DNA of 64,000 nucleotides from a virus (Duplodnaviria > Caudoviricetes), in the IMG/VR virus record IMGVR_UViG_3300031673_000001. The stretch is one strand, 5' to 3'. Below, piece after piece: positions 1,497-17,610 of the stretch (within the stretch, counting starts at the first letter, position 1; the number at the start of each line of letters is the position of its first letter). The position numbers and the translations under genes were made by a program. The notes under the pieces are model-generated. The model saw only the letters and a list, made by a program, of their open reading frames with translations. It was not told the DNA's origin and did not search any database.

Positions 1497-2519
1497 ATGA
1501 TAAGAATAGTAAATTGGTTGTTAACTCGTAGATGTAACCTAAATTGTGACTACTGTGCAATTGTAAAAAACTATCCCACCATGCCTTCTGAATATCCTCC
1601 TATGAGTCATTATATAAAAAATGAAATGACCACAGAGCAAGTTATCAAAGGATTAGATCAATTTCAGTTGCACAATCCAGATTGCTTTCATATCTGGTAT
1701 GGCGGCGAGCCAATTTTGAGGAAAGATTTAGCTGATATTATCAACCACTGTAATGAAAATTATATTCACTACACTATCATATCAAATAATACAAATGAAA
1801 TTATTCCATTGATTGAAAACTTATTTGATAACGTTGATCATATTCAAGGATTTACTGCATCTGTTGATCCATCATTTAATGAAAAAGGTAAGTTTGACAG
1901 AATAATAAAAAGCATATCTGGTTTTGAAAATCTTTTAAAACTCAAAGATCGTATTAATGATGTTGTTGCTGAAATAACAGTTATGAAACATAATGTAAAA
2001 TATCTATATGATCTTGTTAAACTATTAACAGAAAATGGGATCAGCAGTGATATAACATTTGTTGATATAGCAAAAAGTCCATTTTATGATTTCTCTAATA
2101 TAAGTGATGAAAACTTATTGGTAGAACAATCTTCAGAATTATCTGATGTATTTGATTCGTTAAATGATAGTGATTTAGATATTCATATGAAAGAAATCTT
2201 ATTACCAAAAATCTGGGAAATTCTACCATCAGAATTAGATTGTGAATTGGAGAAAGATCTTCATAATGTAACCGTTGATGCAGATGGAACGATTAGATTA
2301 TGTTTAAGAATAAGAGGAACTCATGCTCCAAAATTAGTTAAGGTATCAAATTTAATCGACTCAAAAGGTAACATATCATTTATTGCTGAAAAAGCAATTT
2401 CAAAAGATAAAGAAGTTCATTGTCTAGGATGTAACCATACATGCTTATTAATGAGTAAACATATTAATGAAACAGATCAAGGAACAGAAGATTTAATTCA
2501 TCTCGATAGGAGGGTATAA
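1497..2519 (+). CDS. Radical SAM enzyme with C-terminal Cys cluster (SPASM/twitch-like)
   Basis: CxxxCxxC (CNLNCDYC), GGEP motif, C-terminal C..CLGCNHTC; SD AGGAGG upstream. Confidence 0.88.
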   Translation: MIRIVNWLLTRRCNLNCDYCAIVKNYPTMPSEYPPMSHYIKNEMTTEQVIKGLDQFQLHNPDCFHIWYGGEPILRKDLADIINHCNENYIHYTIISNNTNEIIPLIENLFDNVDHIQGFTASVDPSFNEKGKFDRIIKSISGFENLLKLKDRINDVVAEITVMKHNVKYLYDLVKLLTENGISSDITFVDIAKSPFYDFSNISDENLLVEQSSELSDVFDSLNDSDLDIHMKEILLPKIWEILPSELDCELEKDLHNVTVDADGTIRLCLRIRGTHAPKLVKVSNLIDSKGNISFIAEKAISKDKEVHCLGCNHTCLLMSKHINETDQGTEDLIHLDRRV

Positions 2520-2521
2520 AA

Positions 2522-2836
2522 ATGGCAGCAGAAGAGCAGATTAGAAATGCAGTTAAATTTTGGGAAACCATATATGAAGCTGGAGAAGCAACCATTCGAT
2601 TTATTAAAAAGAGTGGAGTTTCAAGAACTATGAAATGTACCTTAGATTTTGAAAAAATTCCACAGAAACATCATCCTAAAAGTGTTAATATGCCAAAGAT
2701 ATTAAAGTTGATGCAAAAGAGTGGAATAATTCATGTCTATGATTTAGATAAAGGTGACTGGAGATCAGTTCCATTTGCAACTGTTGATTGGTTAGAAACT
2801 TCTGATCAGAGATATAAAATTTCACCTATAAAATAG
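2522..2836 (+). CDS. Small phage protein, WYL_2/DUF2693-like Sm/SH3 fold
   Basis: Pattern IRFIKKSG..RTM.CTL ... VYDLDKGDWRSV resembles the WYL_2/DUF2693 family. Confidence 0.55.
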   Translation: MAAEEQIRNAVKFWETIYEAGEATIRFIKKSGVSRTMKCTLDFEKIPQKHHPKSVNMPKILKLMQKSGIIHVYDLDKGDWRSVPFATVDWLETSDQRYKISPIK

Positions 2837-3225: not shown

Positions 3226-5886
3226 ATGCAATTGGGAATGAAAGATCTTTATGAAGATTATGATATTAGAATAAATAAACGTTATACATCTCTATTAATT
3301 TCGCATCAACCAACTGATTTATCAGCACAGGATCATACTGAAGCATTACCAACTAAACGAATAAAAGTATTACCAACAGATGAATATCTTAAAAAATATT
3401 CATTATTATCAGAAAAAACTTCAACGATTCTTCCTCCTGGTTGTAGATATATTGAAACGCTTAAAAATGGAGGAAGAATATATGTTATTGAAGAACCACC
3501 CCAATTTAGAACAGTAGCAATGTCATTAAACTTTGATCTTATGTATGAAGAAATTAAATCAAAAGGATTACTAGAAGAATATGATATTAAAGGTTGGTTA
3601 GAGAGCAATGTTACACAAACTTCATCAACTAACAGATACTATAAATTAAATCTTGCATTTCCATATGTTGTATTTGTCATTTATATTAATGAAAAAGCAA
3701 ATGTCGAAGTTGGTTATTCTTTTATTAGAACTAGTCAAATGATAGGATTATCTGATTATCTTTTAAAAATGCCAATGTCAAATATTGCAGAAAGTCAGGC
3801 AATATGTTTTGGTGATAGACTTAATTCAGAATCATATAACACAGATCATGAAGCTGTTAGATCAACTATTGATATATTTTGGACAAGTATCTTTAATACA
3901 GACTACACATATAACATCAATGCATATAAAAACGTTGTAGGAATATCAAATTTTTTAGAATGGCAATATCTATCAAGAAAAGATCCAATGTTTGTATATG
4001 TCGCTGACTGGGTTAGATATAATCACAATATCTTTGAACTTATTAATATTATAAAAGAAAGAAGAACCAGCAGATCAAATAATAATGGTAATTCAGATAC
4101 TTATACTACATTTTTAAAAACCTTTACAAAACCCGCAATCATTGGAGAAATTCAAACTGGAAAAATTAATAAAAGAGTTGATCAGCTTTATTATGACATC
4201 ACTACTGGTTTTTATATAACTGATATACTTAAATTAGAAATTGGAGATTCTTTTGAAAATGTAAATAAAACAAAGAAATATTTCGTTATTTCATTTATTG
4301 GCATTAGAGGAGACGATCCTAAAATAATAAGAATTTCATATAATGAAAAAGTATTTAATTTTACACTAAATAGAAAATCTATTCAATATTTAAAAGAAAG
4401 AATTGAAGAACAGCGATTTATTAAAACTATTGATCTTAATGGATTCATTATTAAATCCGGTGATATTATTAAATATATAGATATCACTGGGTCAGAAGTA
4501 TGTAAAAAAATTTACTATATTAGAAAATGTATAGATGGTCGACCAGAGATAAGAATGGGAAATAGATATTATTTAGCTAACAATCTTCCAAAAGGATTAG
4601 AAAAAGTAGATACAGATAATTTAAGCATATATGATATGAATTTGAAAATAGGGGATGAATATTTATACAGTCATTCTAATGCAAGTGATTCTCCTATTAT
4701 CAAACAAATAGAAAGATGTATATTTGATAGTATTGATGTTGCATCAAATAATGACTTGATGTTTAAATTTAAGTCTATGGATCCTCAAAGACAAAATGCC
4801 GACTTAGCAGTATATAGTAATAATACTTCAAACAATCGTCGCAATAGAAGAATATATCCAAAACTTGATTATACAGCAATATGTCAAAATTCTAAAGCAA
4901 CTTCAGTTGGTCGAAGTATTATGGAATTTATAGAGTTTGATGATAATGGAAGCACAATTCCATCCATAGTCTATAAAACACCTACTCACTATAATATTAA
5001 TGTTAATGCACTTTGTGAAAAATCTAAATCAGAAAATATTAAAAATCTCATTAAGAATGATACCACATTTGAAATAGATACCCACTCTGGCATTGTTAAA
5101 TTTGAAGTTGGTGATCTAGTTGTAGTTGCAAATTGGACAAACCCTTTAAGTGTTCTAGATATTAAAAGAATTGAAGCATTTAAAATAGAAGAGAAAGTAA
5201 AAACCATTAACATATCATTTATATTAGCAAATAAACTAGGAAATCTATCTGAAGAATTATTTGTAACTGGTTCTAATGTTCGTATTGGATATATCAGAAA
5301 AATTACAACTAAATTTCAACAGGTATCTGCTGGAATGAAGATTAAAGCAGAAAAAGGAAGAATATCAAATTTTCCAAAAAAAGATTACAATATTATTGTT
5401 GGTATTATTACTGACGGTCCGCAACCATTAGTATTATGTTCAAATGGTTGTACTTTATGGTATGAAGATGTTATAGAAAATTTCAAACTAATTCCAATAA
5501 ACTCTATACTATGGAAGAGCAATGATCATGTTGAATTTGATCTAAAGAAAATTAAACTTCAATCGGGAGATATTGCTATTCCTAATTATTATGGTAATGT
5601 TAATGATCCAGGACTCTTGATGGTTCAAAGTCAAATGAAAAGAGCTTTGAGATATCATCCATTAGACTCGTATTCAAGAAGGTATGATAGTTATAGCGCT
5701 AATTCTGATATGTCGCTTCATAAAGACTGTACATTACATTGTATACCAAATCCAAGAGTTTCAAAATCCGAGCAAGATAAAAATGGTTTTATTAGAGCAG
5801 TTCCTAATTTTCATGGAGGTTTTTATCTAAGTGAAAACTCACACTTTCTATATGTAAATGACTCAAGGAGCTTAATTAATGTTTAA
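3226..5886 (+). CDS. Prokaryotic E2 family D (PRTRC protein B-like) domain fused to tandem SH3/KOW-like repeats
   Basis: N-terminal LPPG..IEEPP..RTV / LAFPYVVF / MPMSNIAESQAICFG / FWTSIFN pattern of Prok-E2_D; six C-terminal modules starting LEIGDSF, IKSGDII, LKIGDEY, FEVGDLV, VSAGMKI, LQSGDIA. Confidence 0.72.
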   Translation: MQLGMKDLYEDYDIRINKRYTSLLISHQPTDLSAQDHTEALPTKRIKVLPTDEYLKKYSLLSEKTSTILPPGCRYIETLKNGGRIYVIEEPPQFRTVAMSLNFDLMYEEIKSKGLLEEYDIKGWLESNVTQTSSTNRYYKLNLAFPYVVFVIYINEKANVEVGYSFIRTSQMIGLSDYLLKMPMSNIAESQAICFGDRLNSESYNTDHEAVRSTIDIFWTSIFNTDYTYNINAYKNVVGISNFLEWQYLSRKDPMFVYVADWVRYNHNIFELINIIKERRTSRSNNNGNSDTYTTFLKTFTKPAIIGEIQTGKINKRVDQLYYDITTGFYITDILKLEIGDSFENVNKTKKYFVISFIGIRGDDPKIIRISYNEKVFNFTLNRKSIQYLKERIEEQRFIKTIDLNGFIIKSGDIIKYIDITGSEVCKKIYYIRKCIDGRPEIRMGNRYYLANNLPKGLEKVDTDNLSIYDMNLKIGDEYLYSHSNASDSPIIKQIERCIFDSIDVASNNDLMFKFKSMDPQRQNADLAVYSNNTSNNRRNRRIYPKLDYTAICQNSKATSVGRSIMEFIEFDDNGSTIPSIVYKTPTHYNINVNALCEKSKSENIKNLIKNDTTFEIDTHSGIVKFEVGDLVVVANWTNPLSVLDIKRIEAFKIEEKVKTINISFILANKLGNLSEELFVTGSNVRIGYIRKITTKFQQVSAGMKIKAEKGRISNFPKKDYNIIVGIITDGPQPLVLCSNGCTLWYEDVIENFKLIPINSILWKSNDHVEFDLKKIKLQSGDIAIPNYYGNVNDPGLLMVQSQMKRALRYHPLDSYSRRYDSYSANSDMSLHKDCTLHCIPNPRVSKSEQDKNGFIRAVPNFHGGFYLSENSHFLYVNDSRSLINV

Positions 5887-7537
5887 AATAGTAGTTGCCG
5901 ATGGAAAACAAGAACTACCAGATGATGATATTTATTATATAGTTGCAAAAGAAGGTATTTTTATAAAAAAGAAATTGGGCATTATGGATAGTGTATCACC
6001 AGTTAAAAATATTTCAATATTAAAAAGTGTTCAAGCAACAGCAAAGATGAATATTGAAAAAATACCATCAATATCTATAGCTAAGGTTTCTAATTTCTTT
6101 AGAGCTGTTCAAAAAGAACATAGATCAGAAGCAATTGTATTATTATTTTATAATGAAAAAACTAAAAAATATAAGTTATTTCCGCCAGCACAAAAAGTGA
6201 GTCCTGCATCAATTGAATATAATAGGGCAGTTGTTATAGATGGTTGGACCATGATTGGTGATATTCATAGTCATAGTTCAATGTCTGCATTTCATTCAGG
6301 AACAGATCAAGGAGATGAGGAGTCTTTCGATGGATTACATATTACATTTGGAAATATGAACTCTGATTTAATAAGTATCTCCGCCTCAATTGTTTCAAAT
6401 GGTAACAGAGTAATAGTTAAACCAGAAGAATATATGAAAGGTATAGAATTAAAAGAAGAGATTGATGAAGTTGAGCAAATTCCTACCACAAGAGTTTATA
6501 GGTGGATCAATGGAAAAATGGTTGAAACAACTCCAAAATTTACAACCGCAGGATTTAAAACCTATCGTAAATATGATAAACGATACAAGGTAGTAAGTGA
6601 GAATGCTATTAAAGCTCAAGTTCCACCCTCATGGTTAGATGCTATTGAAGAACATGAAGTTCGTCATATTTATGGTAATTTTAATCAGTCATTCATAAAT
6701 TGGCCAGAGCATTATAGACATGGATATCCTCAATTTAATCGCGGACCTTGGGCTCCTCGTATTAAAAATGGATGGAATAGAAATTTTGATCCAGATGTTT
6801 GGAGTAGAGAATCTATTAAAGTTCCACCTCAAAATGTTGGAGTTAAAACTAAACCTATTACATTTCCTCCGCATGACCAAGGTCCACTTATTACTGATAT
6901 AACTACTCCTACCAAACCAACTCCTTGTGAATCCTGTGCATTCAAGGAAAGAGCAATTGAATATGTTGCTAAAATAATGGTAGAGAAAAATCAAGGATCC
7001 ATTGAAGAACAGGAAGATGATATATTTGATAAAGAGTCATATGAATGTGAGAAGTGTAATCTAATTGTATCATTTTATTATGATGACTGTGGAGAAATTA
7101 AAGATGATATTATATGTCCATCATGTAAATCAGATGAGCATTTAACCCTACTTGATATAGGATTAAAGGATAAAGATGAAGATGAAGATGATGATCCCTA
7201 TAATTTTGATGACTATCTTTCTGATTTAAAACAAGATTATAAAATCAATTGTAAAACTTGTGGAAGTCAGTTTGATTTATCAATGACAAAAAAAGATGAT
7301 AATGGAGTATCATGTCCATTCTGTGGAAAATTATTATCTACAGAAACAGAAAGCGATCTATTAGATTTAGATGGAGTTAATATAAAGAATATAAGCGAAG
7401 AAGAAATTTCTAATTATAAAGCAGCAAAAGAAAATCCAAATCCATCTAATATAATACCAGATCCTTCTAAACAAATGGTAGCAGACAGTATAAACTCACT
7501 TAAACAATTATTTGAAAAATTTAGGGGAAATAGATGA
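5879..7537 (+). CDS. JAB/JAMM (MPN+) metallo-isopeptidase, PRTRC protein A-like, with C-terminal zinc ribbons and acidic tail
   Basis: E...HxHx7Sx2D motif (SEAIV...IHSHSSMSAFHSGTD); CEKC/CPSC and CKTC/CPFC pairs; D/E-rich stretch. Confidence 0.9.
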   Translation: MFKIVVADGKQELPDDDIYYIVAKEGIFIKKKLGIMDSVSPVKNISILKSVQATAKMNIEKIPSISIAKVSNFFRAVQKEHRSEAIVLLFYNEKTKKYKLFPPAQKVSPASIEYNRAVVIDGWTMIGDIHSHSSMSAFHSGTDQGDEESFDGLHITFGNMNSDLISISASIVSNGNRVIVKPEEYMKGIELKEEIDEVEQIPTTRVYRWINGKMVETTPKFTTAGFKTYRKYDKRYKVVSENAIKAQVPPSWLDAIEEHEVRHIYGNFNQSFINWPEHYRHGYPQFNRGPWAPRIKNGWNRNFDPDVWSRESIKVPPQNVGVKTKPITFPPHDQGPLITDITTPTKPTPCESCAFKERAIEYVAKIMVEKNQGSIEEQEDDIFDKESYECEKCNLIVSFYYDDCGEIKDDIICPSCKSDEHLTLLDIGLKDKDEDEDDDPYNFDDYLSDLKQDYKINCKTCGSQFDLSMTKKDDNGVSCPFCGKLLSTETESDLLDLDGVNIKNISEEEISNYKAAKENPNPSNIIPDPSKQMVADSINSLKQLFEKFRGNR

Positions 7538-8220
7538 AAGAATTATCCATTAAAATCATTGGGTTGGGTGGCGTTGGTTCAGTATTATGTGAAAAGATAG
7601 CAAGATTTTTAAATTACGCCACAGATATTAACGCAAAGTTGACATTAGTAGATGGTGATTCGTATGAAAGTAAAAATTATCAAAGACAAGAATTTACACA
7701 GATGGGAAATAAATCTAGGATTAAAGGTGGAGATTTAGAAAATAAGTTTCCAAATATAGATTTAGATTATTATCCTGCATATATAAATAATGTAAATATT
7801 AATGAAGTCATAAAGTCAGACGATATTGTATTTCTATGTGTTGATAATCATAAAACTAGAATGATCACATCTAAATACTGTAATATGTTAAGCAATATTA
7901 CTTTGATATCTGGTGGAAATGAATTTACGGATGGTAATGTACAAATTTATGTCAGGAAAGGGGGGAAAGATTTAACACCTGATCTCTGTTCTTATCATCC
8001 AGAAATTGCAAATCCCGCAGATAAATTACCAGAGGAAATGAGTTGTGAAGAATTAGCAAATTCAGATCCTCAACTCTACTTCACCAATGTGTGGGTAGCT
8101 ACACTTATGTGTGCAGCATTTTATAATGTAGTTATAAAAAATAACATTGGACCATCTGAAATTTATTTTGATATGACACAGATGTCCGCTATTGCGAAAA
8201 TAAGAGCTCTTAAACAATAA
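7534..8220 (+). CDS. E1/ThiF-family ubiquitin-like activating enzyme
   Basis: GLGGVG nucleotide loop, LVDGD, NYQRQ, GNK, CVDN..R, and a putative catalytic Cys in MSCEE followed by QLYFTN. Confidence 0.92.
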   Translation: MKELSIKIIGLGGVGSVLCEKIARFLNYATDINAKLTLVDGDSYESKNYQRQEFTQMGNKSRIKGGDLENKFPNIDLDYYPAYINNVNINEVIKSDDIVFLCVDNHKTRMITSKYCNMLSNITLISGGNEFTDGNVQIYVRKGGKDLTPDLCSYHPEIANPADKLPEEMSCEELANSDPQLYFTNVWVATLMCAAFYNVVIKNNIGPSEIYFDMTQMSAIAKIRALKQ

Positions 8221-8250
8221 CTGTAAAACAAAGCAAGGAGAATTAAAATC

Positions 8251-8742
8251 ATGGCAAGCGAATATACTTATGAAAATCTGGATAAAATGACCGTCCCCGA
8301 ACTTCGACGTCTATGTGTTGATAAACTTGGAATTCCAGGTATGACCAAAAAACGCAAAGATATTATCATTAAAGCTATTATAAAGCTTCAAGGAAGTTCA
8401 TCCAAACCCTCAGTAGCACCTACTGCAGTAGCTACTGCACCAAAACAAGAAGGTCCATTAACTGAATTAGGTTTTTCTGGACATAGTGTTTTAGATAAAC
8501 CCTATGCATCATTTGGTAATAAAATGAAAACCACAATTCAGGTAACTTGTGGTGCTAGTTCAGGAGCTTTTCCTGTTGAAGGAAAAAGTGTATCTGAAGT
8601 TGGTGAGTTCCTGCGGGAAGTTCTGAATGTGGATAAACTGTCCACAGGTCTGGTCAATGGAAAAGAAATCCCTGGAAGTTATATACTGAAAAACGGAGAT
8701 AGTTTGGAATTTATGAAACCTGCTGGTCGTAAAGGTCGTTAA
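8251..8742 (+). CDS. Rho-N/HeH-like domain fused to a ubiquitin-like (beta-grasp) domain
   Basis: N-term LDKMTVPELRRLC..LGIPGMTKKRKDIIIKAI (Rho_N pattern); Ser/Pro/Ala linker; C-term LVNG...YILKNGDSLEF.KPAGRKGR* (ThiS/Prok_Ub-like ending). Confidence 0.82.
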   Translation: MASEYTYENLDKMTVPELRRLCVDKLGIPGMTKKRKDIIIKAIIKLQGSSSKPSVAPTAVATAPKQEGPLTELGFSGHSVLDKPYASFGNKMKTTIQVTCGASSGAFPVEGKSVSEVGEFLREVLNVDKLSTGLVNGKEIPGSYILKNGDSLEFMKPAGRKGR

Positions 8743-8753
8743 TTGTGCTCCGA

Positions 8754-8781
8754 GGATGGGGATTCTATTGGATCCCCATCC
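8754..8781 (+). terminator. Perfect 10-bp hairpin after the Ubl gene (partial terminator or RNA processing/stability element)
   Basis: GGATGGGGAT-tctattgg-ATCCCCATCC; only a weak U-tract follows. Confidence 0.55.
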
Positions 8782-8808: not shown

Positions 8809-9711
8809 TTGAAATTGGATAGTTTAACAATAATTGGAACTGGAACATTAGGAGCACATCTTTGTAAACATCTTGCTGAAAGTTCAGAAATAAGTAAGTT
8901 AATATTAATTGATGCTGATACAGTTGATTCAAAAGACATATCTATTGGTATTTTTAAACAAGTAGATATTTGTCAACCAAAAGTACATGTATTGCATGAT
9001 ATGTTTTCTACTTATGATACTGAAATTGAACCAAGGGTAGAGTTTTATAAAGATGGTATTACACAATTAGCACCAACCGACCTTATAATTGATTGCAGAA
9101 ATGTGTTTGGAAAAAGGGATATTAACATTGATTTAAAAATGTTTATAACAGAAAGGATTTTAATATTAGATTTTGAAAAGAGATTTAAAAATGAAAGTCA
9201 ATTAAAAGGAGAGTACTCCTATAAGTTATCAAAACATGAAATAAGTACAGCTGCTCATTATGCTACAAATTTAATATTATGTAGCAATATTCTAGAAGAG
9301 TTATTAAAAAGTCAATCAGTTAAATGTATTCATATTGATACAATTAAGTCAATAATATTACAGAATATATGCAGTTCAAAACAAAGATATGATATAGTTT
9401 ATGATCTAGATAAGGATGTGGAAAGATTACCACGGATTCATGAAGTTATACAACCAATACTAAAAAAGAATAGAACATCTAATTTAAAGTTGGCAGTCAA
9501 AGAAAGAAGCTCAATTGCTAAAAATATTTTTGAATTTCCAGATGCACCTAAAACAAAATATCAAATAATACCACAAAATAGTTTAAGACAACCAGAAGAT
9601 GTAATTAATTTTTTGAAAAAAATAGTTCAAACTAAAAACGGAACTTCGAAACTTAGACCGGTTCTTATACATGATGAAATTTATATTTTGTCAGAAACAG
9701 GAGGTGCATAA
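8809..9711 (+). CDS. Second, degenerate ThiF/E1-like protein
   Basis: TTG start after AGGAG; IIGTGTLG, LIDAD, Q-PK; N..RQ replaced by KDISIG and DxxD by DCRN. Confidence 0.7.
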   Translation: MKLDSLTIIGTGTLGAHLCKHLAESSEISKLILIDADTVDSKDISIGIFKQVDICQPKVHVLHDMFSTYDTEIEPRVEFYKDGITQLAPTDLIIDCRNVFGKRDINIDLKMFITERILILDFEKRFKNESQLKGEYSYKLSKHEISTAAHYATNLILCSNILEELLKSQSVKCIHIDTIKSIILQNICSSKQRYDIVYDLDKDVERLPRIHEVIQPILKKNRTSNLKLAVKERSSIAKNIFEFPDAPKTKYQIIPQNSLRQPEDVINFLKKIVQTKNGTSKLRPVLIHDEIYILSETGGA

Positions 9712-9712
9712 T

Positions 9713-10177
9713 ATGATTCATCACAATGTAACTATATGTGGAACCGGAAATATTCCATCCACGAATTATGATTTTTACTTTGAAAAAATAATTCCAAAGT
9801 TTACTTTACAAAATAAAACTTATCGACAAATAATCAATATACATAAAATTTATCATTTAGAAGGATTTTGTATTAAAACATACGATACTAAATTAAAAAA
9901 AGTTATGGTATATGGATGGCATCCTAATGTAGATTCTAAAACAAATGAACTTTGTTTATCCAATGATCTACAAGGACAATATGTTCTGGATATTGAAAAT
10001 CTGAAGAATCTATTAATTAGTATGCTTGAAGTTTACAACCTTGATGAATGTTATAATACACCAATTGCCAATCTTTATGAAACAAAAAATGTTGATGCTC
10101 AAGGACAACCATTCTACTTTAATCTTATGAAAGGAATTATATACAATGAACAATCATCCATTAGATCAATATATTGA
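9713..10177 (+). CDS. Ubiquitin-conjugating enzyme E2-like protein (UBC fold)
   Basis: HPNVDSKTNELCL matches the E2 active-site HPN(x7-8)CL; downstream LLISML..NLD helix. Start moved to ATG 9713, 7 nt after GGAGGT. Confidence 0.72.
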   Translation: MIHHNVTICGTGNIPSTNYDFYFEKIIPKFTLQNKTYRQIINIHKIYHLEGFCIKTYDTKLKKVMVYGWHPNVDSKTNELCLSNDLQGQYVLDIENLKNLLISMLEVYNLDECYNTPIANLYETKNVDAQGQPFYFNLMKGIIYNEQSSIRSIY

Positions 10178-10397
10178 AAATAGAATTAAAGAATATGTTA
10201 GGAATAATGAGACAATTATAAAAAAACAAGATGCACAAGTTATTATTAATACCTTAATGCCATTAGTTGATGAGATAATAGCAGATAAGGTAAAGCAGCA
10301 TTTAAAATTTATAGCACAATATTTAATAGATTCACTTAAATCAAAAGAGGAGAAACCAGTAGATGCCAAAGATACTGAACTATCAACAGTTTTGTGA
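10146..10397 (+). CDS. Hypothetical helical protein
   Basis: 83-aa ORF overlapping both neighbours, AAGGA SD. Confidence 0.6.
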   Translation: MNNHPLDQYIENRIKEYVRNNETIIKKQDAQVIINTLMPLVDEIIADKVKQHLKFIAQYLIDSLKSKEEKPVDAKDTELSTVL

Positions 10398-13044
10398 ACA
10401 ACTAGAAGAAGTTACATCCTTAAAAGTAATAGCAAAAAAGAAATTTCACCCTGATGGTCTATTCTCCGAGCAAATTTTTGGACCAGTTAAAAATTACACT
10501 TGTCAATGTGGAATATATTATGGACCATCCAATGTAAAAACTGGTAGTAAATGTAATCTATGTAAGGTAGATATTGTTAATAGTGATGTAAGACGAACAA
10601 GATTTGCAAAAATTATATTACCGTTTCCAATAATAAATCCTTTATTTTATGATCTATTAAATGAAATTGGTGGAAAGAGTATAAAATCAGCTTTAGATGA
10701 CTTAATGAAAAATGAAAAAAGTTATATGTATATTGATGGTCTGGAGCATGTAGTTGCTAGTGAAGATATTAGACCAAGCGGAGTAGAAATCTATGAAAGA
10801 ACAGATGCAATTTATAAACTAATTTATGATGTTTCTAAAGGACTATCAGATGAAGGAATAGAAGACTGGAAAATTATCTCAGAGAATATTGATAATCTTT
10901 TAATAAATCAAATAATTGTATTACCTCCCGATCTAAGACCTGTATCAAGAGGTGGGGCGGGAAAGCATTTAATGGATAAAATTAATAGATACTATGTTCA
11001 GATTCTAACTAATAAAACTTTAATGCATGGTACAAATATAAATGTTCAAAGAGATAAAAATTTATACTATACATATTTTAAACAGATACAGAAAAATGCG
11101 AATGAGTTATATAGCAGAATACTTGAAAAAATGGCAAAGAAAGAAGGTCTAATACGTGGAAATATTTTAGGGAAGAGAATAGATTTTTCAGGTCGAGCGG
11201 TAATAACCCCTGATCCTTCTCTTTTATTAAATGAATGTAAACTTCCATACTTTATGGCATTGGAAATATTTAAACTTCCAATTGCAAAACGAATAATTGA
11301 AATAGGAAGATTTAAATTATTAAACGATGCATTAGACTTTGTTGATAACTGTATTGAATTTAGAAAACCTGACCTTTTTAAAATATGTAAAGATACAGTT
11401 GAAGGTGAGATATGTATATTAAATAGACAACCATCTTTACATAGACTTGGAATGCTAGGTTTTAAAATTCTAATTACATCGGATCAAGTTATTAAAATTC
11501 ATCCATTAGTCTGTGCTCCATTTAATGCCGATTTTGATGGAGATCAAATGGCAATCTATATTCCTATTACAGAAGAAGCTAAACAAGAAATAATTGAAAG
11601 AATGTTACCTTCTCGTAATTTGAGCAGTCCATCAAATGAAAATTTAACAACTACCCCAAGTCAAGATATTATATTAGGAATTTATTTTTTAACTACAGGC
11701 GTATTCGATGGTCAACTGGATGATCAAACTGGTTTAAGTATTTTTAATGATGCACTACCAGATAATTATCCAAAAATTAATGAGTTAGTAAATGAAAAGA
11801 AACTTTTATACATTTTAAATGATATAAAAGATAGTTATCCAGCTGATGAAGTTATTAAAGTTTTGGATAGAATTAAAACAATTGGTTTTACATATGCAAC
11901 ACTATTTGGTTGTACTATGTCATTAGAAAATTTTCAATCAAAAGAACTAACAGATTTAAGAGATGCAATATATTTAAAAAGTACAATTAGAGAACAATTA
12001 ATAGCTCTATCAAATAAGGGCATTATACAAACTCTAAGAAATAGTTTTGAATATGCATATATGATTGAATCTGGTGCTAGAGGAAGCTGGGATCAAGTGA
12101 AACAGATTATAATGTCCAGAGGATTTGTATCTAACTTTGATGGAGAAATTCTGCCGATTCCTATTAAACATAATTTAGTTGAAGGATTAACTGAAAAAGA
12201 GTTTTTCTACTCAACATATGGATGCCGAAAAGGACTTCTTGATATTGCATTAAATACAGGAACATCAGGTTATCTTTCCAGAAAGTTAATTTTTACTTGC
12301 GCTAATCTTCAAATTGATACAGAATTAGATGACTGTGGCACAACTGATCTCCTTGAAGTTTATGTTAAAACTAAAAGAAAAGCAAGAATGCTAGTTAATA
12401 GATATCAACGAGTTAAAGAAAATTTAGAAGTTATTACTAAAGAAAATTATAAAGATATAATTGGAAAAACAATTTGGATTCGAAGTCCTATATTATGTAA
12501 GTCTCCAAAGTTATGTAATAAATGCTATGGTGACTTATATAAAAGATTAAATAGTCGCTTTGTTGGTATAATTGCTGCGCAAACTCTTGGTGAACGAGGA
12601 ACTCAATTAGTTTTAAGAACTTTTCATACATCAGGATCAGCTATTATACAAGGCGAAGGTTTAGAGGATGAATCATTGAAACAGAAAGATATTATTGGAG
12701 ATTTAGCAACTGTATCACAGCTTCTTCACAAATTTAAAAATAAAACATACACAGATATAGTTGAAGAATTATTTGAAGTGTATAATAAAGATATCTATCA
12801 TGTCCATTATGAATGTGTTGTTGCTCAATTAATGTGGAAAGGATTTGAAAAATGGAGACTTATAAAAGATAGACATCTAATAACACCAGATTATTATTCA
12901 ATTCAATCAGTTCCGAACCGTGAAAGTTGGATATTAGCAATGGCATTCTCAAATCCAAAAAGAAGTATTTTGCAAGGAATTTTAAATCAAGGAAAATATT
13001 CAGGTATAATGGATAAAATTTTAAAAGGAGAAATTATATCATGA
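10363..13044 (+). CDS. rpoC: Phage multisubunit RNA polymerase beta' subunit (unsplit, compact)
   Basis: Catalytic NADFDGD; CQCG/CNLC zinc finger; RIDFSGRAVI; LNRQPSLH; trigger loop GERGTQLVLRTFH; GYLSRKL. Confidence 0.97.
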   Translation: MPKILNYQQFCEQLEEVTSLKVIAKKKFHPDGLFSEQIFGPVKNYTCQCGIYYGPSNVKTGSKCNLCKVDIVNSDVRRTRFAKIILPFPIINPLFYDLLNEIGGKSIKSALDDLMKNEKSYMYIDGLEHVVASEDIRPSGVEIYERTDAIYKLIYDVSKGLSDEGIEDWKIISENIDNLLINQIIVLPPDLRPVSRGGAGKHLMDKINRYYVQILTNKTLMHGTNINVQRDKNLYYTYFKQIQKNANELYSRILEKMAKKEGLIRGNILGKRIDFSGRAVITPDPSLLLNECKLPYFMALEIFKLPIAKRIIEIGRFKLLNDALDFVDNCIEFRKPDLFKICKDTVEGEICILNRQPSLHRLGMLGFKILITSDQVIKIHPLVCAPFNADFDGDQMAIYIPITEEAKQEIIERMLPSRNLSSPSNENLTTTPSQDIILGIYFLTTGVFDGQLDDQTGLSIFNDALPDNYPKINELVNEKKLLYILNDIKDSYPADEVIKVLDRIKTIGFTYATLFGCTMSLENFQSKELTDLRDAIYLKSTIREQLIALSNKGIIQTLRNSFEYAYMIESGARGSWDQVKQIIMSRGFVSNFDGEILPIPIKHNLVEGLTEKEFFYSTYGCRKGLLDIALNTGTSGYLSRKLIFTCANLQIDTELDDCGTTDLLEVYVKTKRKARMLVNRYQRVKENLEVITKENYKDIIGKTIWIRSPILCKSPKLCNKCYGDLYKRLNSRFVGIIAAQTLGERGTQLVLRTFHTSGSAIIQGEGLEDESLKQKDIIGDLATVSQLLHKFKNKTYTDIVEELFEVYNKDIYHVHYECVVAQLMWKGFEKWRLIKDRHLITPDYYSIQSVPNRESWILAMAFSNPKRSILQGILNQGKYSGIMDKILKGEIIS

Positions 13045-13220
13045 GAAGTTCAAAAAGAATACCTGAAATGTTAAGAATAATATCGAAGGTTTGGTATACA
13101 TATCCAGACCTTCGATTGGGGCAACTAATATTAAATGGTTGTCCAACTGATGAAGGATTATATTATATGGAAGATGAAGATCTTCTAGAAAATTTAAAAA
13201 GATCTTATAAGGAGGAGTAA
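13041..13220 (+). CDS. Small conserved-type phage protein (59 aa) not in the ORF track
   Basis: MRSSKRIPEMLRIISKVWYTYPDLRLGQLILN...EDEDLLENLKRSYKEE*; ATGA overlap with the beta' stop; its 3' end carries the AGGAGG SD of beta. Confidence 0.8.
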   Translation: MRSSKRIPEMLRIISKVWYTYPDLRLGQLILNGCPTDEGLYYMEDEDLLENLKRSYKEE

Positions 13221-13223
13221 ACT

Positions 13224-16200
13224 TTGAAATTAATTAATCCAGTTTTCAAAATACAAGATCCTAACAACAATATCTTCACGATTCGAAAAAAAGATCAAGA
13301 TCAACTCTTAACAGTAACAAGACAAATACTTCAACCTGCAATAGATTTAGGATTTACATTAAATGAACTTACTTTAAAAGATTCTAGATTTTCATCTGGA
13401 GAATTATCGAAAACAGTTAAACAAACCCTTGCAATTAAATTACAAAAAGGAACTTCTAATATTGATTTAAGTTTACAGATTCCTAAATTGGTTGATAATA
13501 ATTATATAGTAATTAATGGTCGTAGGAAAATTCCTCTCTTTCAATTATTTGATATTCCAATTGTAACTAGAGGAGAAAATATTAAGTTACGAACTAATGT
13601 AGCAACCCTAATGATTGTAAAAGATAGAGATCCGCCATTTGTTAAAGTTAGTTTTTTAGGAAAAAAGATTCCTCTATCAATACTATTATATGCATATTAT
13701 GGAATTGATGAGATGATAAAAAATAAAGAGTTTGATCTTATAAATGTTAAAATTGAGGATTTAGATCCAGAAAACTTAATGGATTTATTAATAAAAGATT
13801 GTAAACTCATATATAATGATCTACAAACAAATATGACACAAGATGATTTTATTCTAGAAATTGGAAGGGTTTATTCAAAATATAATTCCAAATCTAAAGG
13901 TCATGACATTGTTTATGCTTTAGATTTAATTCCACAGGTTGATATATTTACAAGATCTTTCTTAACAACTGGATCATTATTAGGAGAATTAATTCTAACA
14001 ATTAAGACTGGGGATGTAGATGATATATTATTTACAAATAAGAGAGTTAGATGTTTTGAATATATGATTTTTTCAAAGCTATCAAAAATTATATTTGATT
14101 TATGTTTTTCAAATAGATCAACCAAGCAACCGAAATTTAATACAAATTCAACTCAAATATTAAGTGAATGTAATGTTTCGGATATTGTTCAATTTGATTT
14201 TTCAATCAATCCTATTGAGGAATTAACAAAGTTATCAAGAATAAGTCTCTTGGGTCCTGGTGGATTTAAAAGAGAGAATATACCAAAGCATTTAAGGGAT
14301 ATATGCCCTACGATGTTTGGTCGTATATGCCCAGTAGACACCCCAGATCGCGATAACTGCGGCGTTCTACAAAACTTGATACCTAATGTCAAATTGGATG
14401 ATCAACTACGCTTCTCTGATGATATATGCGAGCATCAACCTATTTCAATACCTGTATCATTCACCCCATTCTGTGAACATGATGATCAGACAAGATTACA
14501 AATGGCAGCATCACAAATGAGACAAGCGATTATGCTAAAAGAATTTGATCAACCAATGATCAAGTCTGGTTGTGAAGGTTTATATACAGATCATACACAA
14601 TTTATTAAACGTGCAAAAAAGAATGGTGAGGTTGTTCATATTGATGAAAAATATTTAATGGTTGTATATGAAGATAGAATAGTTGATATTTTTGATATCT
14701 CATTTAGAAATATTTATGTTGAACACATGGATACCATGAAATTATATGTTAACGTTGGAGATAAATTTAAAACTGGAGACATATTAGCTGAAAGTAATTT
14801 TATTCAAAATGGTGATATTACTTTTGGTAAAAACTTATTAACAGGAGTAATGATTTATTATGGTCATAATTATGAGGATGGTATTATTATATCTGATAGA
14901 TTAGTAAAAACTAATACTTTTACATCAGTTCATTTTAAGGATCTATCATTTACAATTCCTCCAAATAAAGTTTTATTAACTTTGTCAAACGATGAATATA
15001 AACCATTACCAGATCCTCTTGAACTAATTAAAATAGGAAATCCATATGCAATTTTGAAAACTCTCTCATCAGAAGATTTATACTCTGTTTGGATAGAACC
15101 TATACGATTAGAAGCAGAGAAAACATATATTATACCAAGTGTAAAGATATATGCAAATGAATGGAATCAAGACATACCTGAATATAAAGAATGGGTAGAA
15201 AAAACAATTAAAAAACAGAAAGAAAAACAGACAGGTTTGAGAGAAATGATTAAAGAAAAGTTACCAAGAGATCTTGCTGTAAAATTTATAAGAGAAAAAG
15301 ATCTAGAACTATTCTCATTCATTGGTAAATATAAAAATAAAAAAGAAAAAATAAATGGTATTTATGTAGAAATGTCTGGAATTCATTTAAGATCAATTCA
15401 GGTTGGAGATAAAATTGCAAATAGGCATGGTAATAAAGGAGTTATATCCAGAATATTACCGCATGAAATGATGCCACAATTAGAAGATGGAAGACATCTC
15501 GATATATGTTTAAATCCATTAGGAATAATTTCTCGTATGAATATTGGTCAGTTATTTGAGTTACATCTATCTATGTCATTATATGACTTACAAAAAACTA
15601 TATCTAAAATGTTAGTAGATGAAAAATCACAGGATGAGATCAAACAATATTTAATTAACTATATTAAAATTATTGATAAGACAAAAGAAGGATGGTATCA
15701 AAAACAATTTATTGAACAGCTTCCAGATATTATTGATTCTAAGTTTATTGAATCACTAACACTAATACAACCACCATTTGAATCTTGTCATATAGAAGAT
15801 TTAGAAAAAGCATTAAAATATACTGAAACAAATTTCGCATATGATATATATGATCCTATTCCAAGAAAGAATTTATTAAAACCAATTGCAGTTGGTTATA
15901 TGTATTTTTTAAGAATGGTTCATATAGCAGAAGAAAAGTTAGCATCTAGAGGAATTGGTTCATATGCAAAACGAACTCTGCAACCATTAGGCGGAAGAAA
16001 AAATAAAGGTGGTCAAAGATGTGGAGAAATGGAAACAGCATGTATTATTGGTCATGATTGCCCAAAAAATTTATTTGAGTTTTTAACAACCAAATCAGAT
16101 TGTATAGATTTGAAAAACGATTATATTAGAAGCTATATAAATACTGGAAGATCAACAAATGAGCAAAAAATAGAACTAAATCCAATGCCAGAGTCTGTTA

Positions 16201-16265
16201 AATTATTAAACTCTTATCTAACAGTGTTGGGGGTAGATTACAATGACAACGTACAATCACAATGA
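13224..16265 (+). CDS. rpoB: Phage multisubunit RNA polymerase beta subunit (unsplit)
   Basis: GRICPVDTPD..NCG, RLQMAASQMRQA, GDKIANRHGNKGVI, NPLGIISRMN.GQ, GGQRCGEME; TTG start. Confidence 0.97.
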   Translation: MKLINPVFKIQDPNNNIFTIRKKDQDQLLTVTRQILQPAIDLGFTLNELTLKDSRFSSGELSKTVKQTLAIKLQKGTSNIDLSLQIPKLVDNNYIVINGRRKIPLFQLFDIPIVTRGENIKLRTNVATLMIVKDRDPPFVKVSFLGKKIPLSILLYAYYGIDEMIKNKEFDLINVKIEDLDPENLMDLLIKDCKLIYNDLQTNMTQDDFILEIGRVYSKYNSKSKGHDIVYALDLIPQVDIFTRSFLTTGSLLGELILTIKTGDVDDILFTNKRVRCFEYMIFSKLSKIIFDLCFSNRSTKQPKFNTNSTQILSECNVSDIVQFDFSINPIEELTKLSRISLLGPGGFKRENIPKHLRDICPTMFGRICPVDTPDRDNCGVLQNLIPNVKLDDQLRFSDDICEHQPISIPVSFTPFCEHDDQTRLQMAASQMRQAIMLKEFDQPMIKSGCEGLYTDHTQFIKRAKKNGEVVHIDEKYLMVVYEDRIVDIFDISFRNIYVEHMDTMKLYVNVGDKFKTGDILAESNFIQNGDITFGKNLLTGVMIYYGHNYEDGIIISDRLVKTNTFTSVHFKDLSFTIPPNKVLLTLSNDEYKPLPDPLELIKIGNPYAILKTLSSEDLYSVWIEPIRLEAEKTYIIPSVKIYANEWNQDIPEYKEWVEKTIKKQKEKQTGLREMIKEKLPRDLAVKFIREKDLELFSFIGKYKNKKEKINGIYVEMSGIHLRSIQVGDKIANRHGNKGVISRILPHEMMPQLEDGRHLDICLNPLGIISRMNIGQLFELHLSMSLYDLQKTISKMLVDEKSQDEIKQYLINYIKIIDKTKEGWYQKQFIEQLPDIIDSKFIESLTLIQPPFESCHIEDLEKALKYTETNFAYDIYDPIPRKNLLKPIAVGYMYFLRMVHIAEEKLASRGIGSYAKRTLQPLGGRKNKGGQRCGEMETACIIGHDCPKNLFEFLTTKSDCIDLKNDYIRSYINTGRSTNEQKIELNPMPESVKLLNSYLTVLGVDYNDNVQSQ

Positions 16266-16638: not shown

Positions 16639-16760
16639 TTTTTGATAATCCAATATTATTATTTCAATGTTCAAATGATAGTGAACATAAACTTCTTGTA
16701 TTAGATGAATGGAAAGTAGCTATTGCAGAAGAATTTTATAGAGGAGCATATTATGAATGA
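16515..16760 (+). CDS. Small putative zinc-binding protein
   Basis: CSIC ... C.ND.EH; GGAG SD upstream of ATG. Confidence 0.6.
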   Translation: MLKTEYCSICKEEITIRYHIPDKNFKIEKGKIVRDDIHKGMIFDNPILLFQCSNDSEHKLLVLDEWKVAIAEEFYRGAYYE

Positions 16761-17610
16761 TAACGAATGTCTTCCAGATATACAATGTACAGAACCAGCA
16801 TTACAAATTCCTATCAAGCAAGTTGGAGTTGAAAATGTTGTGGTTCCTTTTAGTTTAGAATCTAAAAATGGTGGATTTCATAATTTGACAGCAAACGTCA
16901 CTATGATGACTAATTTAGATCATACAACAAAAGGAATCTCAATGTCTAGATTATTATTAACATTAAAACCATATTTGGAACTTCCATTAAAAAGTAAATT
17001 AATAAAAGAAATAATTAAAAAGATGTTAGAAAACGTTGGTGGTTCATCAGCATTTATGAGATTTAAATTTAGACTACCAAGAATTCGAGAATCCATTAAA
17101 ACAAAAAATTCATTTCCAATCTATTATAAATGTAAGTTTGAGGGACAGATATTTAAAAAAGAATTATATGAAGAATTTAGATTCTTTCAAGGGGTTACAG
17201 TTCAATATGCATCATATTGCCCATGTTCCGCAGAACTATGCAGCGTATTAAATGAAAGAGGATTTCCTCATAATCAAAGATCATTTGCGCAAATCTTAAC
17301 AGAAATAGATACTAAATCTCATTATGTTTGGTTAGAAGATATTATTGATGCAGTCGAAAATAATATACACACCTTACCATATCCAGTAATTAAAAGAATT
17401 GATGAACAAGAGATAGCAAGAATTGCAGCAAAGAATCCAATGTTTGTAGAAGATGCAATTAGAATAATATCTAATTCTGTTGATAAAATACCAGGTGTGA
17501 TAGATTGGGTTGTAAAATGTATTCATGAAGAATCAATACATACTTCTGAAGCAGTAGCAGTCAATTGGAAAGGAACTTTAAATGGATTTGATGGAAGGCG
17601 TTACATATGA
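16753..17610 (+). CDS. folE2: GTP cyclohydrolase I, type IB (FolE2/MptA family)
   Basis: IPIKQVGV, KGISMSRL, YASYCPCS, PHNQRS, NPMFVED..R, EESIH.SEA; start placed at ATG 16753 after GAGGAG. Confidence 0.93.
   Translation: MNDNECLPDIQCTEPALQIPIKQVGVENVVVPFSLESKNGGFHNLTANVTMMTNLDHTTKGISMSRLLLTLKPYLELPLKSKLIKEIIKKMLENVGGSSAFMRFKFRLPRIRESIKTKNSFPIYYKCKFEGQIFKKELYEEFRFFQGVTVQYASYCPCSAELCSVLNERGFPHNQRSFAQILTEIDTKSHYVWLEDIIDAVENNIHTLPYPVIKRIDEQEIARIAAKNPMFVEDAIRIISNSVDKIPGVIDWVVKCIHEESIHTSEAVAVNWKGTLNGFDGRRYI

What the first reader, a model, noticed from the sequence alone, without database searches (positions are those of the whole stretch)
8251..8742. Ubiquitin-like modifier carrying an N-terminal Rho-N/HeH nucleic-acid-binding domain and a masked C-terminal glycine
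Seen: a Rho_N-like helical domain, a flexible linker, then a beta-grasp ending PAGRKG-R-stop, so one Arg caps the terminal Gly. Known: Ubl precursors need JAB or protease trimming to expose Gly. Inference: the JAB matures it, and conjugation would covalently attach a DNA/RNA-binding module to targets, plausibly the transcription machinery encoded immediately downstream.
Basis: partly seen in the sequence, partly recalled or inferred. Interest (0 to 1): 0.78.

Follow-up and report, generated by a model that had tools for sequence, protein, structure and literature searches.

The report
Giant-phage ubiquitin-like tag with DNA-binding-type head
An uncultured giant phage encodes a small ubiquitin-like tag, fused to a Rho-type helical head and capped by one residue after its reactive glycine, next to its own activating, conjugating and trimming enzymes; this suggests some phages run their own protein-tagging system, whose targets are unknown.

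Summary
ORF 8251-8742 (+) encodes 163 aa. It has a Rho_N/HeH three-helix head (res 7-49), a variable Ser/Pro/Ala linker, a conserved pre-domain motif, and a beta-grasp (res 94-155) whose tail ends KPAGRKG-R-stop.

The terminal Gly is a family trait:
- All 120 close homologues carry the G-x-K-G end: 43 stop at the Gly, 71 add one Cys, and this protein alone adds Arg.
- In a wider family (827 representatives) Gly holds the last profile position in 139 of 146.
- Some relatives are head-to-tail poly-Ubl proteins.

In 71 viral contigs the gene order is fixed: Prok-E2_D protein, JAB, E1, Ubl, second E1-like, HPN-Cys E2, then RNA polymerase beta' and beta. Distant lineages keep Ubl, E2_D, JAB and E1 together in other orders.

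A JAB+Ubl model puts the tail in the JAMM site (ipSAE 0.67, best control 0.00). This may partly reflect likeness to solved complexes.

Best reading: a phage-borne ubiquitin-like modifier, trimmed by the JAB and conjugated by its own E1/E2. The nucleic-acid-binding role of the head is only inferred, and RNA polymerase as target has no support beyond clade collinearity.

It is a new variant of a known kind; Type II Bil Ubls also have a one-residue cap and N-terminal extensions. The scan's index holds notes on this only from this same genome.

The parts
8251..8742 (+). Ubl gene (P0001, 163 aa): HeH head, linker, beta-grasp, one-residue cap, stop
8235..8240 (+). AAGGAG ribosome-binding site, 10 nt before the ATG
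   Evidence: read from the sequence
8269..8397 (+). Rho_N/HeH-type three-helix head (res 7-49). Conserved L-G-I-P-G-x-T-K-K-x-K loop; L26, G30, K33 and K36 are invariant in 38 sequences.
8398..8463 (+). Variable Ser/Pro/Ala/Thr linker (res 50-71), low pLDDT, length varies between homologues
8464..8529 (+). Conserved pre-domain motif (res 72-93; S79, G89 invariant; F75, P84, F88 nearly so). Its role is unknown.
8530..8736 (+). Beta-grasp Ubl domain with flexible tail (res 94-162), ending at Gly162. Invariant K156, P157, G159, K161, G162.
8737..8739 (+). CGT codon for the cap residue Arg163. Most homologues have Cys here or nothing.
8754..8781 (+). 12-bp stem hairpin just after the stop, -26.5 kcal/mol, z -4.0. 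Possible attenuator or mRNA stabiliser; function not tested.
5879..7537 (+). JAB/JAMM peptidase (552 aa) with a Zn-ribbon-rich, acidic C-terminal extension. E84, H130, H132, S140 and D143 are invariant in 57 sequences. Predicted maturase and deconjugase.
7534..8220 (+). E1-like ThiF adenylating enzyme (228 aa). GLGGVGS, RQ and CVDNHKTR motifs and Cys171 are conserved.
8809..9711 (+). Second ThiF-like protein (300 aa) that lacks the RQ motif. Its C-terminal end E-T-G-[AG]-A is conserved.
9713..10177 (+). E2-like protein with conserved HPN...C motif. The longest ORF starts at 9671; the ATG at 9713 follows the E1b stop.
3226..5886 (+). 886-aa protein whose N-terminal part is a Prok-E2_D domain (35 of 40 clade members hit, best E 8.2e-07) with invariant Cys194

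Best explanation
P0001 is the modifier protein of a ubiquitin-like conjugation system carried by a clade of uncultured jumbo myovirus-like phages.

Proposed steps:
1. The JAB peptidase (5879-7537) binds the beta-grasp and its basic tail and cuts after Gly162, removing Arg163.
2. The E1-like enzyme encoded just upstream (7534-8220) adenylates Gly162, possibly paired with the second, degenerate E1-like protein.
3. The Ubl is passed to a cysteine of an E2. This is the Prok-E2_D domain of the 886-aa protein, the HPN-Cys E2, or both.
4. The Ubl is then joined to target lysines. The JAB can also reverse this.

The Rho_N/HeH head travels with the tag. Either the modified protein gains a module of a type that binds nucleic acid, or the free tag is concentrated on DNA or RNA so that nearby proteins are modified first.

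Shown here: the fold, the conserved Gly end, intact catalytic motifs, conserved gene linkage, and a controlled model of the JAB-Ubl contact.

Inferred only: cleavage, adenylation, transfer, nucleic-acid binding, and the identity of targets (phage or host).
For: Fold: beta-grasp at pLDDT 82. Top Foldseek hits are all Ubl/MoaD/TGS; VIA Z is about 8 to MoaD, ubiquitin, TtuB and ISG15.

Reactive end:
- All 120 close homologues carry the G-x-K-G end, with 0 or 1 further residue.
- Gly sits at the last profile position in 139 of 146 wider representatives; 84 end there and 30 have a one-residue cap.
- Relatives with 2-4 head-to-tail repeats each end in G-x-K-G, like polyubiquitin.

Enzymes:
- The JAMM residues are invariant in 57 JABs.
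- E1 nucleotide-binding and Arg-finger motifs and a Cys are conserved; E2 HPN...C is conserved.
- Prok-E2_D is found in 35 of 40 members of the 886-aa family, with an invariant Cys.

Linkage:
- The order E2_D-JAB-E1-Ubl-E1b is intact wherever the contig reaches it, in 71 viral loci. tblastn at E<1e-5 detects the HPN E2 in 49 of them.
- Ubl, E2_D, JAB and E1 recur together in other orders in distant lineages (L072), and the E1-Ubl pair recurs in L075 and L077.

Contact model: JAB(1-200)+Zn+Ubl scored ipSAE 0.67 (runs 0.69, 0.67, 0.65). The best of 3 controls was 0.00.
- That mark was reached by 58 of 80 solved complexes and 2 of 110 mismatched pairs.
- The runs agree in at least 96% of contacts, and partner pLDDT is 87.
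- Ubl residues 155-163 lie against JAB E84, H130, H132, S140 and D143.
- JAB-Ubl complexes have been solved, so part of this pass may be from likeness.

Precedent: Type II Bil BilA Gly97-Ala98 is cut by the JAB BilC, and bacterial Ubls carry varied N-terminal domains (PMC10557695; 10.1101/2024.11.21.623966).

Head: it is kept in 87 of 150 family representatives, in 1-3 copies.
Against: - No experiment exists and no cultured relative was found.
- The Ubl has no significant sequence match to any solved Ubl or to Pfam ThiS/ubiquitin models. Assignment rests on predicted fold and context.
- The end is K-G, not the G-G of ubiquitin, NEDD8, ThiS or MoaD.
- Many homologues lack a cap, so 'masking' is not essential.
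- Two different E2-like proteins and two E1-like proteins make the actual route ambiguous.
- The Rho_N match is below Pfam's gathering score. In Rho itself the main RNA site is the OB fold next to this helical bundle (my own knowledge), so nucleic-acid binding by the head alone is uncertain.
Confidence: 0.72

Rival explanations
1. Same cascade, but with the first reader's specific target. The tag is conjugated to the phage RNA polymerase beta'/beta encoded just downstream, giving it an extra nucleic-acid-binding module.
For: rpoC and rpoB follow the cassette in all 71 related loci. The head resembles the N-terminus of the transcription terminator Rho.
Against: The whole block from the radical-SAM gene to FolE2 is collinear in the clade, so the adjacency counts as one event, not 71. 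On the short contigs of distant lineages with the same Ubl/E1/JAB/E2_D families, no RNA polymerase gene lies nearby. No direct test was possible.
Confidence: 0.1
2. A sulfur-carrier protein of the ThiS/MoaD/TtuB type. The E1-like enzyme makes a C-terminal thiocarboxylate used for a thio-modified cofactor or nucleoside; the JAB only exposes the end, as in CysO-Mec systems.
For: The nearest curated families for the E1 are ThiF/MoeB. Structural neighbours include MoaD, ThiS and TtuB. A radical-SAM gene and FolE2 lie in the same block.
Against: The end is K-G, not G-G. Two E2-like proteins with conserved cysteines travel with it. Poly-Ubl precursors and HeH fusions fit a protein tag, not a carrier. 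No ThiG, MoaE, TtuA or rhodanese family was found among the neighbours scanned.
Confidence: 0.06
3. A non-conjugated adaptor. The beta-grasp is a stable interaction domain and the HeH head a DNA anchor, for example a phage regulator that recruits or regulates the E1/JAB proteins without being attached to anything.
For: Many beta-grasp domains (TGS, RBD, UBX-like) are never conjugated, and fold matches include them. The protein matches no curated Ubl family.
Against: The chain ends exactly at a conserved Gly, with only 0-1 further residue in close homologues. Head-to-tail repeats in relatives each end in the same G-x-K-G. Linkage to E1 directly upstream recurs in several lineages. The tail is modelled in the JAMM site.
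Confidence: 0.1

Closest known systems
Type II BilABCD (Bacterial ISG15-like) Ubl BilA with JAB BilC, E1 BilD and E2 BilB (PMC10557695)
   Same: Single beta-grasp Ubl with a conserved Gly followed by a short non-conserved tail (one Ala in E. aridi). The tail is removed by the operon's JAB, and the Ubl is then activated by E1 and passed to E2. Some BilA proteins carry N-terminal extensions.
   Different: - Bil is a bacterial defence operon ordered Ubl-E2-DUB-E1, with a fused inactive-plus-active E1.
- Here the genes belong to a phage core block ordered E2_D-JAB-E1-Ubl-E1b-E2, and the two E1-like domains are separate genes.
- The Ubl shows no detectable sequence match to solved Ubl chains.
- The N-terminal domain is HeH/Rho_N, which is not among those reported (disordered, coiled coil, DUF1508).
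Iyer/Burroughs/Aravind 2006 E1-E2-JAB-Ubl operon classes on mobile elements, including the PRTRC cassette (PMC1779556; NCBIfam TIGR03735/TIGR03736)
   Same: - The same combination of JAB, ThiF-type E1, an E2 of a prokaryotic family and a small Ubl with C-terminal Gly, borne on mobile DNA.
- Tandem Ubl repeats were noted there too.
- The best curated match of the JAB is PRTRC protein A, and the E1 also matches the PRTRC ThiF family protein.
   Different: - Scores are far below the curated cut-offs: JAB 56.6 vs 101.8 bits, E1 39.2 vs 144.75 bits.
- No ParB gene was noted in the block.
- The Ubl matches no NCBIfam model.
- An HPN-type E2 and a second E1-like protein are added.
Eukaryotic ubiquitin and polyubiquitin precursors
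   Same: Beta-grasp with a basic flexible tail ending in Gly. Precursors are capped by one extra residue; by my own knowledge this is Cys in human UBB. Relatives are head-to-tail poly-Ubl proteins. The cassette holds an HPN...Cys E2 and two E1-like proteins, one with degenerate motifs.
   Different: The end is K-G rather than G-G. There is no sequence similarity to ubiquitin: 10-16% identity in structural alignments. It carries an N-terminal HeH domain. No RING or HECT E3 was recognised.
Rho termination factor N-terminal helical subdomain (Pfam Rho_N, HeH/SAP/LEM-like fold)
   Same: Three-helix head with the L-G-I-x-G-x-S/T-K-x-x-K loop. It superposes at rmsd 1.0 A with 32% identity over 44 columns.
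   Different: Here it stands alone, without Rho's OB fold or ATPase. It occurs in 1-3 copies ahead of a Ubl. The Pfam score is below the gathering threshold.

Membership tests
Conjugatable ubiquitin-like modifier (functional class) | Beta-grasp fold | tested here: met
   AF2 pLDDT 82. Foldseek hits are all beta-grasp at probability 1.0. VIA Z is about 8 to MoaD, ubiquitin and TtuB.
Conjugatable ubiquitin-like modifier (functional class) | Conserved C-terminal Gly at or within a few residues of the chain end, on a flexible tail | tested here: met
   All 120 close homologues carry the G-x-K-G end with 0-1 further residue. Gly is found in 139 of 146 wider representatives.
Conjugatable ubiquitin-like modifier (functional class) | Linked E1 adenylating enzyme, E2 with catalytic Cys, and a deconjugating peptidase | tested here: met
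   Synteny in 71 loci and in distant lineages, with conserved motifs.
Conjugatable ubiquitin-like modifier (functional class) | Covalent attachment to target proteins | not testable with these tools
   Needs biochemistry or proteomics.
ThiS/MoaD sulfur carriers | C-terminal Gly-Gly and a match to the Pfam ThiS model | tested here: not met
   The end is K-G. There is no ThiS hit at E <= 0.01; only faint precomputed hits exist on relatives.
ThiS/MoaD sulfur carriers | Partner sulfur-transfer enzymes (ThiG, MoaE, TtuA, rhodanese) nearby | tested here: not met
   None was found among the neighbours scanned with Pfam.
Type I/II BilABCD | Gene order Ubl-E2-DUB-E1, with E1 carrying fused inactive and active adenylation domains | tested here: not met
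   The order here is E2_D-JAB-E1-Ubl-E1b-E2, and the two ThiF-like domains lie on separate genes.
Type I/II BilABCD | Sequence homology of the Ubl to BilA | tested here: inconclusive
   Profile searches of all PDB chains gave no significant Ubl hit. BilA sequences themselves were not compared directly.
PRTRC cassette | Proteins reach the NCBIfam cut-offs for PRTRC_A and PRTRC_ThiF | tested here: not met
   56.6 vs 101.8 bits and 39.2 vs 144.75 bits.
Rho_N / HeH domain | Pfam PF07498 at the gathering score | tested here: inconclusive
   20.9 bits vs 24.9 for this protein. Some homologues carry precomputed PF07498 hits. Atlas clusters show Rho_N in 15-51% of members.
Rho_N / HeH domain | Three-helix helix-extension-helix fold that superposes on the Rho N-terminus | tested here: met
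   rmsd 1.0-1.8 A over 44-46 columns, probability 0.90-0.99.
Rho_N / HeH domain | Binds nucleic acid | not testable with these tools
   Inferred only, from the conserved basic loop T-K-K-x-K and a net charge of +4 for residues 1-50.

The most novel reading that the evidence does not exclude
Prokaryotic viruses run their own complete ubiquitin-like 'writer' system as a core replication function. It attaches a DNA/RNA-binding HeH tag to host or phage proteins to relocate or disable them. This viral lineage unites features otherwise seen together in eukaryotes: poly-Ubl precursors, single-residue caps, an active plus a degenerate E1-like protein, and an HPN-Cys E2. It could therefore bear on how the eukaryotic system was assembled.
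Probability: 0.3. Interest if true: 0.85.

Novelty: new variant of a known kind. Interest (0 to 1): 0.68.

Why it matters
The bacterial ubiquitin-like conjugation systems shown so far to act in phage infection (Type II CBASS Cap2/Cap3 and Bil) are host defences against phages. Here the same kind of machinery is a conserved core block of a widespread clade of roughly 200-280 kb phages. The clade is seen in 71 IMG/VR contigs and in soil and marine-sediment runs.

That suggests phages use protein tagging themselves, for takeover, counter-defence or their own assembly.

The tag carries a domain of a type that binds nucleic acid, so the modification could work by relocating proteins rather than by marking them for degradation.

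A practical point: the K-G end means trypsin would leave a single Gly (+57.02 Da) on target lysines, which makes target discovery by mass spectrometry straightforward. The poly-Ubl relatives give a natural substrate for testing the JAB.

Tried and rejected
- DNA and protein searches of 50,697 deposited phage genomes found no relative of the cassette DNA or of the Ubl. The E1 has weak hits in jumbo Bacillus phages, but the region around one of them (vB_BceM_WH1) shows no annotated Ubl, JAB or E2.
- Profile searches of PDB sequences gave only insignificant hits (FHA of Dun1, PF1061, SAMP2, TGS). The FHA resemblance is a shared N-G-x-x-V...G-D motif and was set aside after the fold search.
- The full-length AF2 model was poor (pLDDT 67) and its Foldseek hits were weak, so the C-domain was refolded alone.
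- PADLOC gave only weak CBASS E1-E2 hits for the two ThiF-like proteins and none for the Ubl, JAB or E2.
- P0172, a 3308-aa hit with 19 partial matches, is a T9SS surface protein with Ig/Fn3 repeats. It was rejected as a false positive.
- The C-terminal 116 aa of the second E1-like protein gave no Pfam hit. Whether it is a ubiquitin-fold domain was not resolved.
- No whole genome is held for this window.
- No RNA holder was listed for the gene.
- Eight literature searches found no paper describing a phage-encoded HeH-Ubl or this cassette (the jumbo-phage review was read). This covers only the held library.

Full report
**What is there.** The window is part of an uncultured jumbo, myovirus-like phage.
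- It holds a tail sheath, baseplate and large terminase, and its GC content is about 29%. Contigs carrying the same protein reach 237 kb.
- ORF 8251-8742 (+) has an AAGGAG site 10 nt before its ATG. It encodes P0001, 163 aa, ending ...KPAGRKG-R-stop.
- A 12-bp hairpin (8754-8781, -26.5 kcal/mol, z -4.0) follows the stop.

**Domain anatomy.**
- Residues 7-49 form three helices. They match Pfam Rho_N weakly (E 3.7e-4, 20.9 bits against a cut-off of 24.9). They superpose on the Rho N-terminus at rmsd 1.0 A over 44 columns, probability 0.99.
- The loop L-G-I-P-G-x-T-K-K-x-K is the most conserved part: L26, G30, K33 and K36 are invariant in 38 sequences.
- Residues 50-71 are a low-confidence, length-variable Ser/Pro/Ala/Thr linker.
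- Residues 72-93 carry a conserved motif of unknown role (S79, G89 invariant; F75, P84, F88 nearly so).
- The C-domain, folded alone with 144 diverse sequences, reaches pLDDT 82 with beta-beta-alpha-beta-beta...beta order and a flexible tail.
- All top Foldseek matches are beta-grasp proteins at probability 1.0, TM 0.5-0.67. VIA-align gives Z 8.1 to MoaD in the MoeB-MoaD adenylate complex (rmsd 2.0 A, 66 aligned), and Z 7.8-8.1 to ubiquitin, TtuB, Fubi and ISG15.

**The glycine end is a family trait; the cap is optional.**
- Among 120 close homologues (49-83% identity), all carry the G-x-K-G end: 43 stop at that Gly, 71 add one Cys, 6 add another single residue, and Arg occurs only here. The codon here is CGT, one transition from the Cys codon TGT. 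That this is the history is my inference.
- An exhaustive HMMER search with the C-domain profile found 827 cluster representatives at E <= 0.001.
- In 146 of the best 150, Gly holds the last profile position in 139. Of the 146, 84 end there, 30 have one extra residue (Cys in 17) and the rest have longer tails.
- Fifteen representatives are poly-Ubl proteins, mostly head-to-tail repeats each ending G-x-K-G. Ten are bare 65-77-aa Ubls.
- 87 carry the HeH head in one, two or three copies.

This pattern is what one expects of a processed, conjugated modifier. It also shows that cap removal cannot be the only task of the peptidase.

**Context.**
- In all 71 related IMG/VR loci the order is fixed: radical-SAM, WYL_2, a 125-aa protein, an 886-aa protein, JAB, E1, Ubl, second ThiF-like (E1b), E2, then RNA polymerase beta' and beta, and later FolE2.
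- The JAB keeps E84, H130, H132, S140 and D143 in all 57 sequences compared. Its best curated match is PRTRC protein A, well below the cut-off.
- The E1 keeps the glycine loop, RQ, the CVDNHKTR motif and Cys171. E1b lacks RQ but keeps a striking E-T-G-[AG]-A C-terminus. The E2 keeps HPN...C.
I tested this: 35 of 40 clade members hit Pfam Prok-E2_D (best E 8.2e-07; 0.0022 for the window's copy), with invariant Cys194.
- Distant lineages carry the same four families in other arrangements. L072 has poly-Ubl, E2_D, JAB, E1. Another contig has an E2_D protein, a 304-aa protein, ThiF, Ubl, WYL_2. L075 and L077 have E1 directly before the Ubl.

The conserved unit is thus Ubl + E2_D + JAB + E1. E1b and the HPN E2 are additions of this clade.

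**JAB-Ubl contact.** A controlled complex prediction used JAB residues 1-200, zinc, and the Ubl domain with its tail.
- It gave ipSAE 0.67 (runs 0.69, 0.67, 0.65) against 0.00 for the best of three controls.
- That mark was reached by 58 of 80 solved complexes and 2 of 110 mismatched pairs.
- The runs agree in at least 96% of contacts, and partner pLDDT is 87.
- Ubl residues 155-163 contact the JAMM residues; the lowest-error pairs include K161 with H130 and D143.
- The calibration holds only roughly here, because my own alignments and a riding zinc were used.
- JAB-Ubl complexes have been solved, so this shows likeness and compatibility, not proof of cleavage.

**Most likely mechanism** (confidence about 0.7 for the core).
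1. The JAB trims Arg163.
2. E1 adenylates Gly162.
3. The Ubl moves to an E2 cysteine.
4. The Ubl is joined to target lysines, and the JAB can reverse this.

The HeH head is either cargo that gives targets a nucleic-acid-binding module, or an anchor that concentrates the tag on DNA or RNA. I rate nucleic-acid binding by the head at about 0.4-0.5. The evidence is its fold, a conserved basic loop, net charge +4 and its multiplication to 2-3 copies in relatives.

Targets are unknown. RNA polymerase is possible, but only clade-wide collinearity supports it, and the adjacency is not seen on the limited distant contigs.

**Rivals.** A sulfur-carrier role is unlikely: the end is K-G rather than G-G, E2-like proteins are present, relatives are poly-Ubl, and no sulfur-transfer partners were found. 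A non-conjugated adaptor is unlikely given the exact Gly terminus and the repeated E1 linkage.

**Comparison with known systems.**
- The nearest characterised analogue is Type II Bil. There BilA Gly97 is followed by one Ala, which the JAB BilC removes, and some Ubls carry N-terminal extensions (PMC10557695; 10.1101/2024.11.21.623966). Gene order, E1 architecture, sequence and ownership (phage rather than host) all differ.
- The operon type belongs to the E1/E2/JAB/Ubl classes on mobile elements outlined by Iyer and colleagues in 2006, who also noted tandem Ubls (PMC1779556).
- A broad review of jumbo phages does not mention such a cassette (PMC7824862), and none of my searches found one described.
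- Asgard-virus genomes with ThiF/E1-like genes have been reported (10.1101/2021.07.29.454249), but without a Ubl of this kind.

**Verdict.** This is a real, strongly conserved gene. It is speculative on nucleic-acid binding and unsupported on the RNA polymerase target. I class it as a new variant of a known kind, with interest 0.68. The phage occurs in soil and marine-sediment metagenomes from several studies. The scan's own index holds notes on this gene only from this same genome.

Noticed in passing
window 8809-9711 (E1b), last 5 codons: The second ThiF-like protein ends in a clade-wide conserved E-T-G-[AG]-A motif (for example PETGAA in 26 and EETGAA in 13 of 61 sequences). A conserved small-residue C-terminus on an E1-like protein recalls CBASS CD-NTase tails, which are themselves adenylated and conjugated. 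It could be a second substrate, or a tail that occupies the E1 site.
   Followed up: partly
L072 2690-3523; L074 1294-1932; L078 7091-7996; proteins P0128, P0139, P0169, P0204: Relatives of the Ubl occur as proteins with 2-4 repeats, each ending G-x-K-G, and often a short extra tail, like polyubiquitin. In the fully tandem ones the repeats are head to tail (L078's protein has a spacer). In L072 the poly-Ubl lies next to a short Prok-E2_D protein, a JAB and an E1.
   Followed up: partly
window 3226-5886: The N-terminal 250 aa or so of the 886-aa protein is a Prok-E2_D domain with invariant Cys194 (35 of 40 clade members hit the Pfam model). The remaining 600 aa or so match nothing. The cassette therefore has two different E2-like proteins.
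   Followed up: partly
L010 10466-11059 (also L009, L016, L019, L022, L024 and others): In many related phages an extra ORF (197 aa in L010) sits between the Ubl and E1b genes. It was not scanned against any family library.
   Followed up: no
L075 275-1209 (NCBI assembly GCA_964360205.1, 12-kb contig): An E1 closely similar to the phage E1 (phmmer E 2e-53), followed by a bare 73-aa Ubl, lies at a contig end. Beside it are citrate-lyase-like, mraZ, rsmH and PBP genes. This could be a cellular or prophage copy of the pair.
   Followed up: no
window 8754-8781: A strong hairpin lies right after the Ubl stop and before E1b. It could raise Ubl expression relative to the downstream enzymes.
   Followed up: partly
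window 10363-16265: The RNA polymerase beta' (893 aa) and beta (1013 aa) are each one unsplit ORF in beta'-then-beta order. A 59-aa ORF between them is conserved in 39 of 71 loci.
   Followed up: no
window 1497-2836 and 16723-17610: A radical-SAM/SPASM-like enzyme, a WYL_2 protein and a FolE2 GTP cyclohydrolase flank the block. WYL_2 also follows the Ubl in a distant lineage (L077 and the contig), so it may be functionally tied to the cassette.
   Followed up: no
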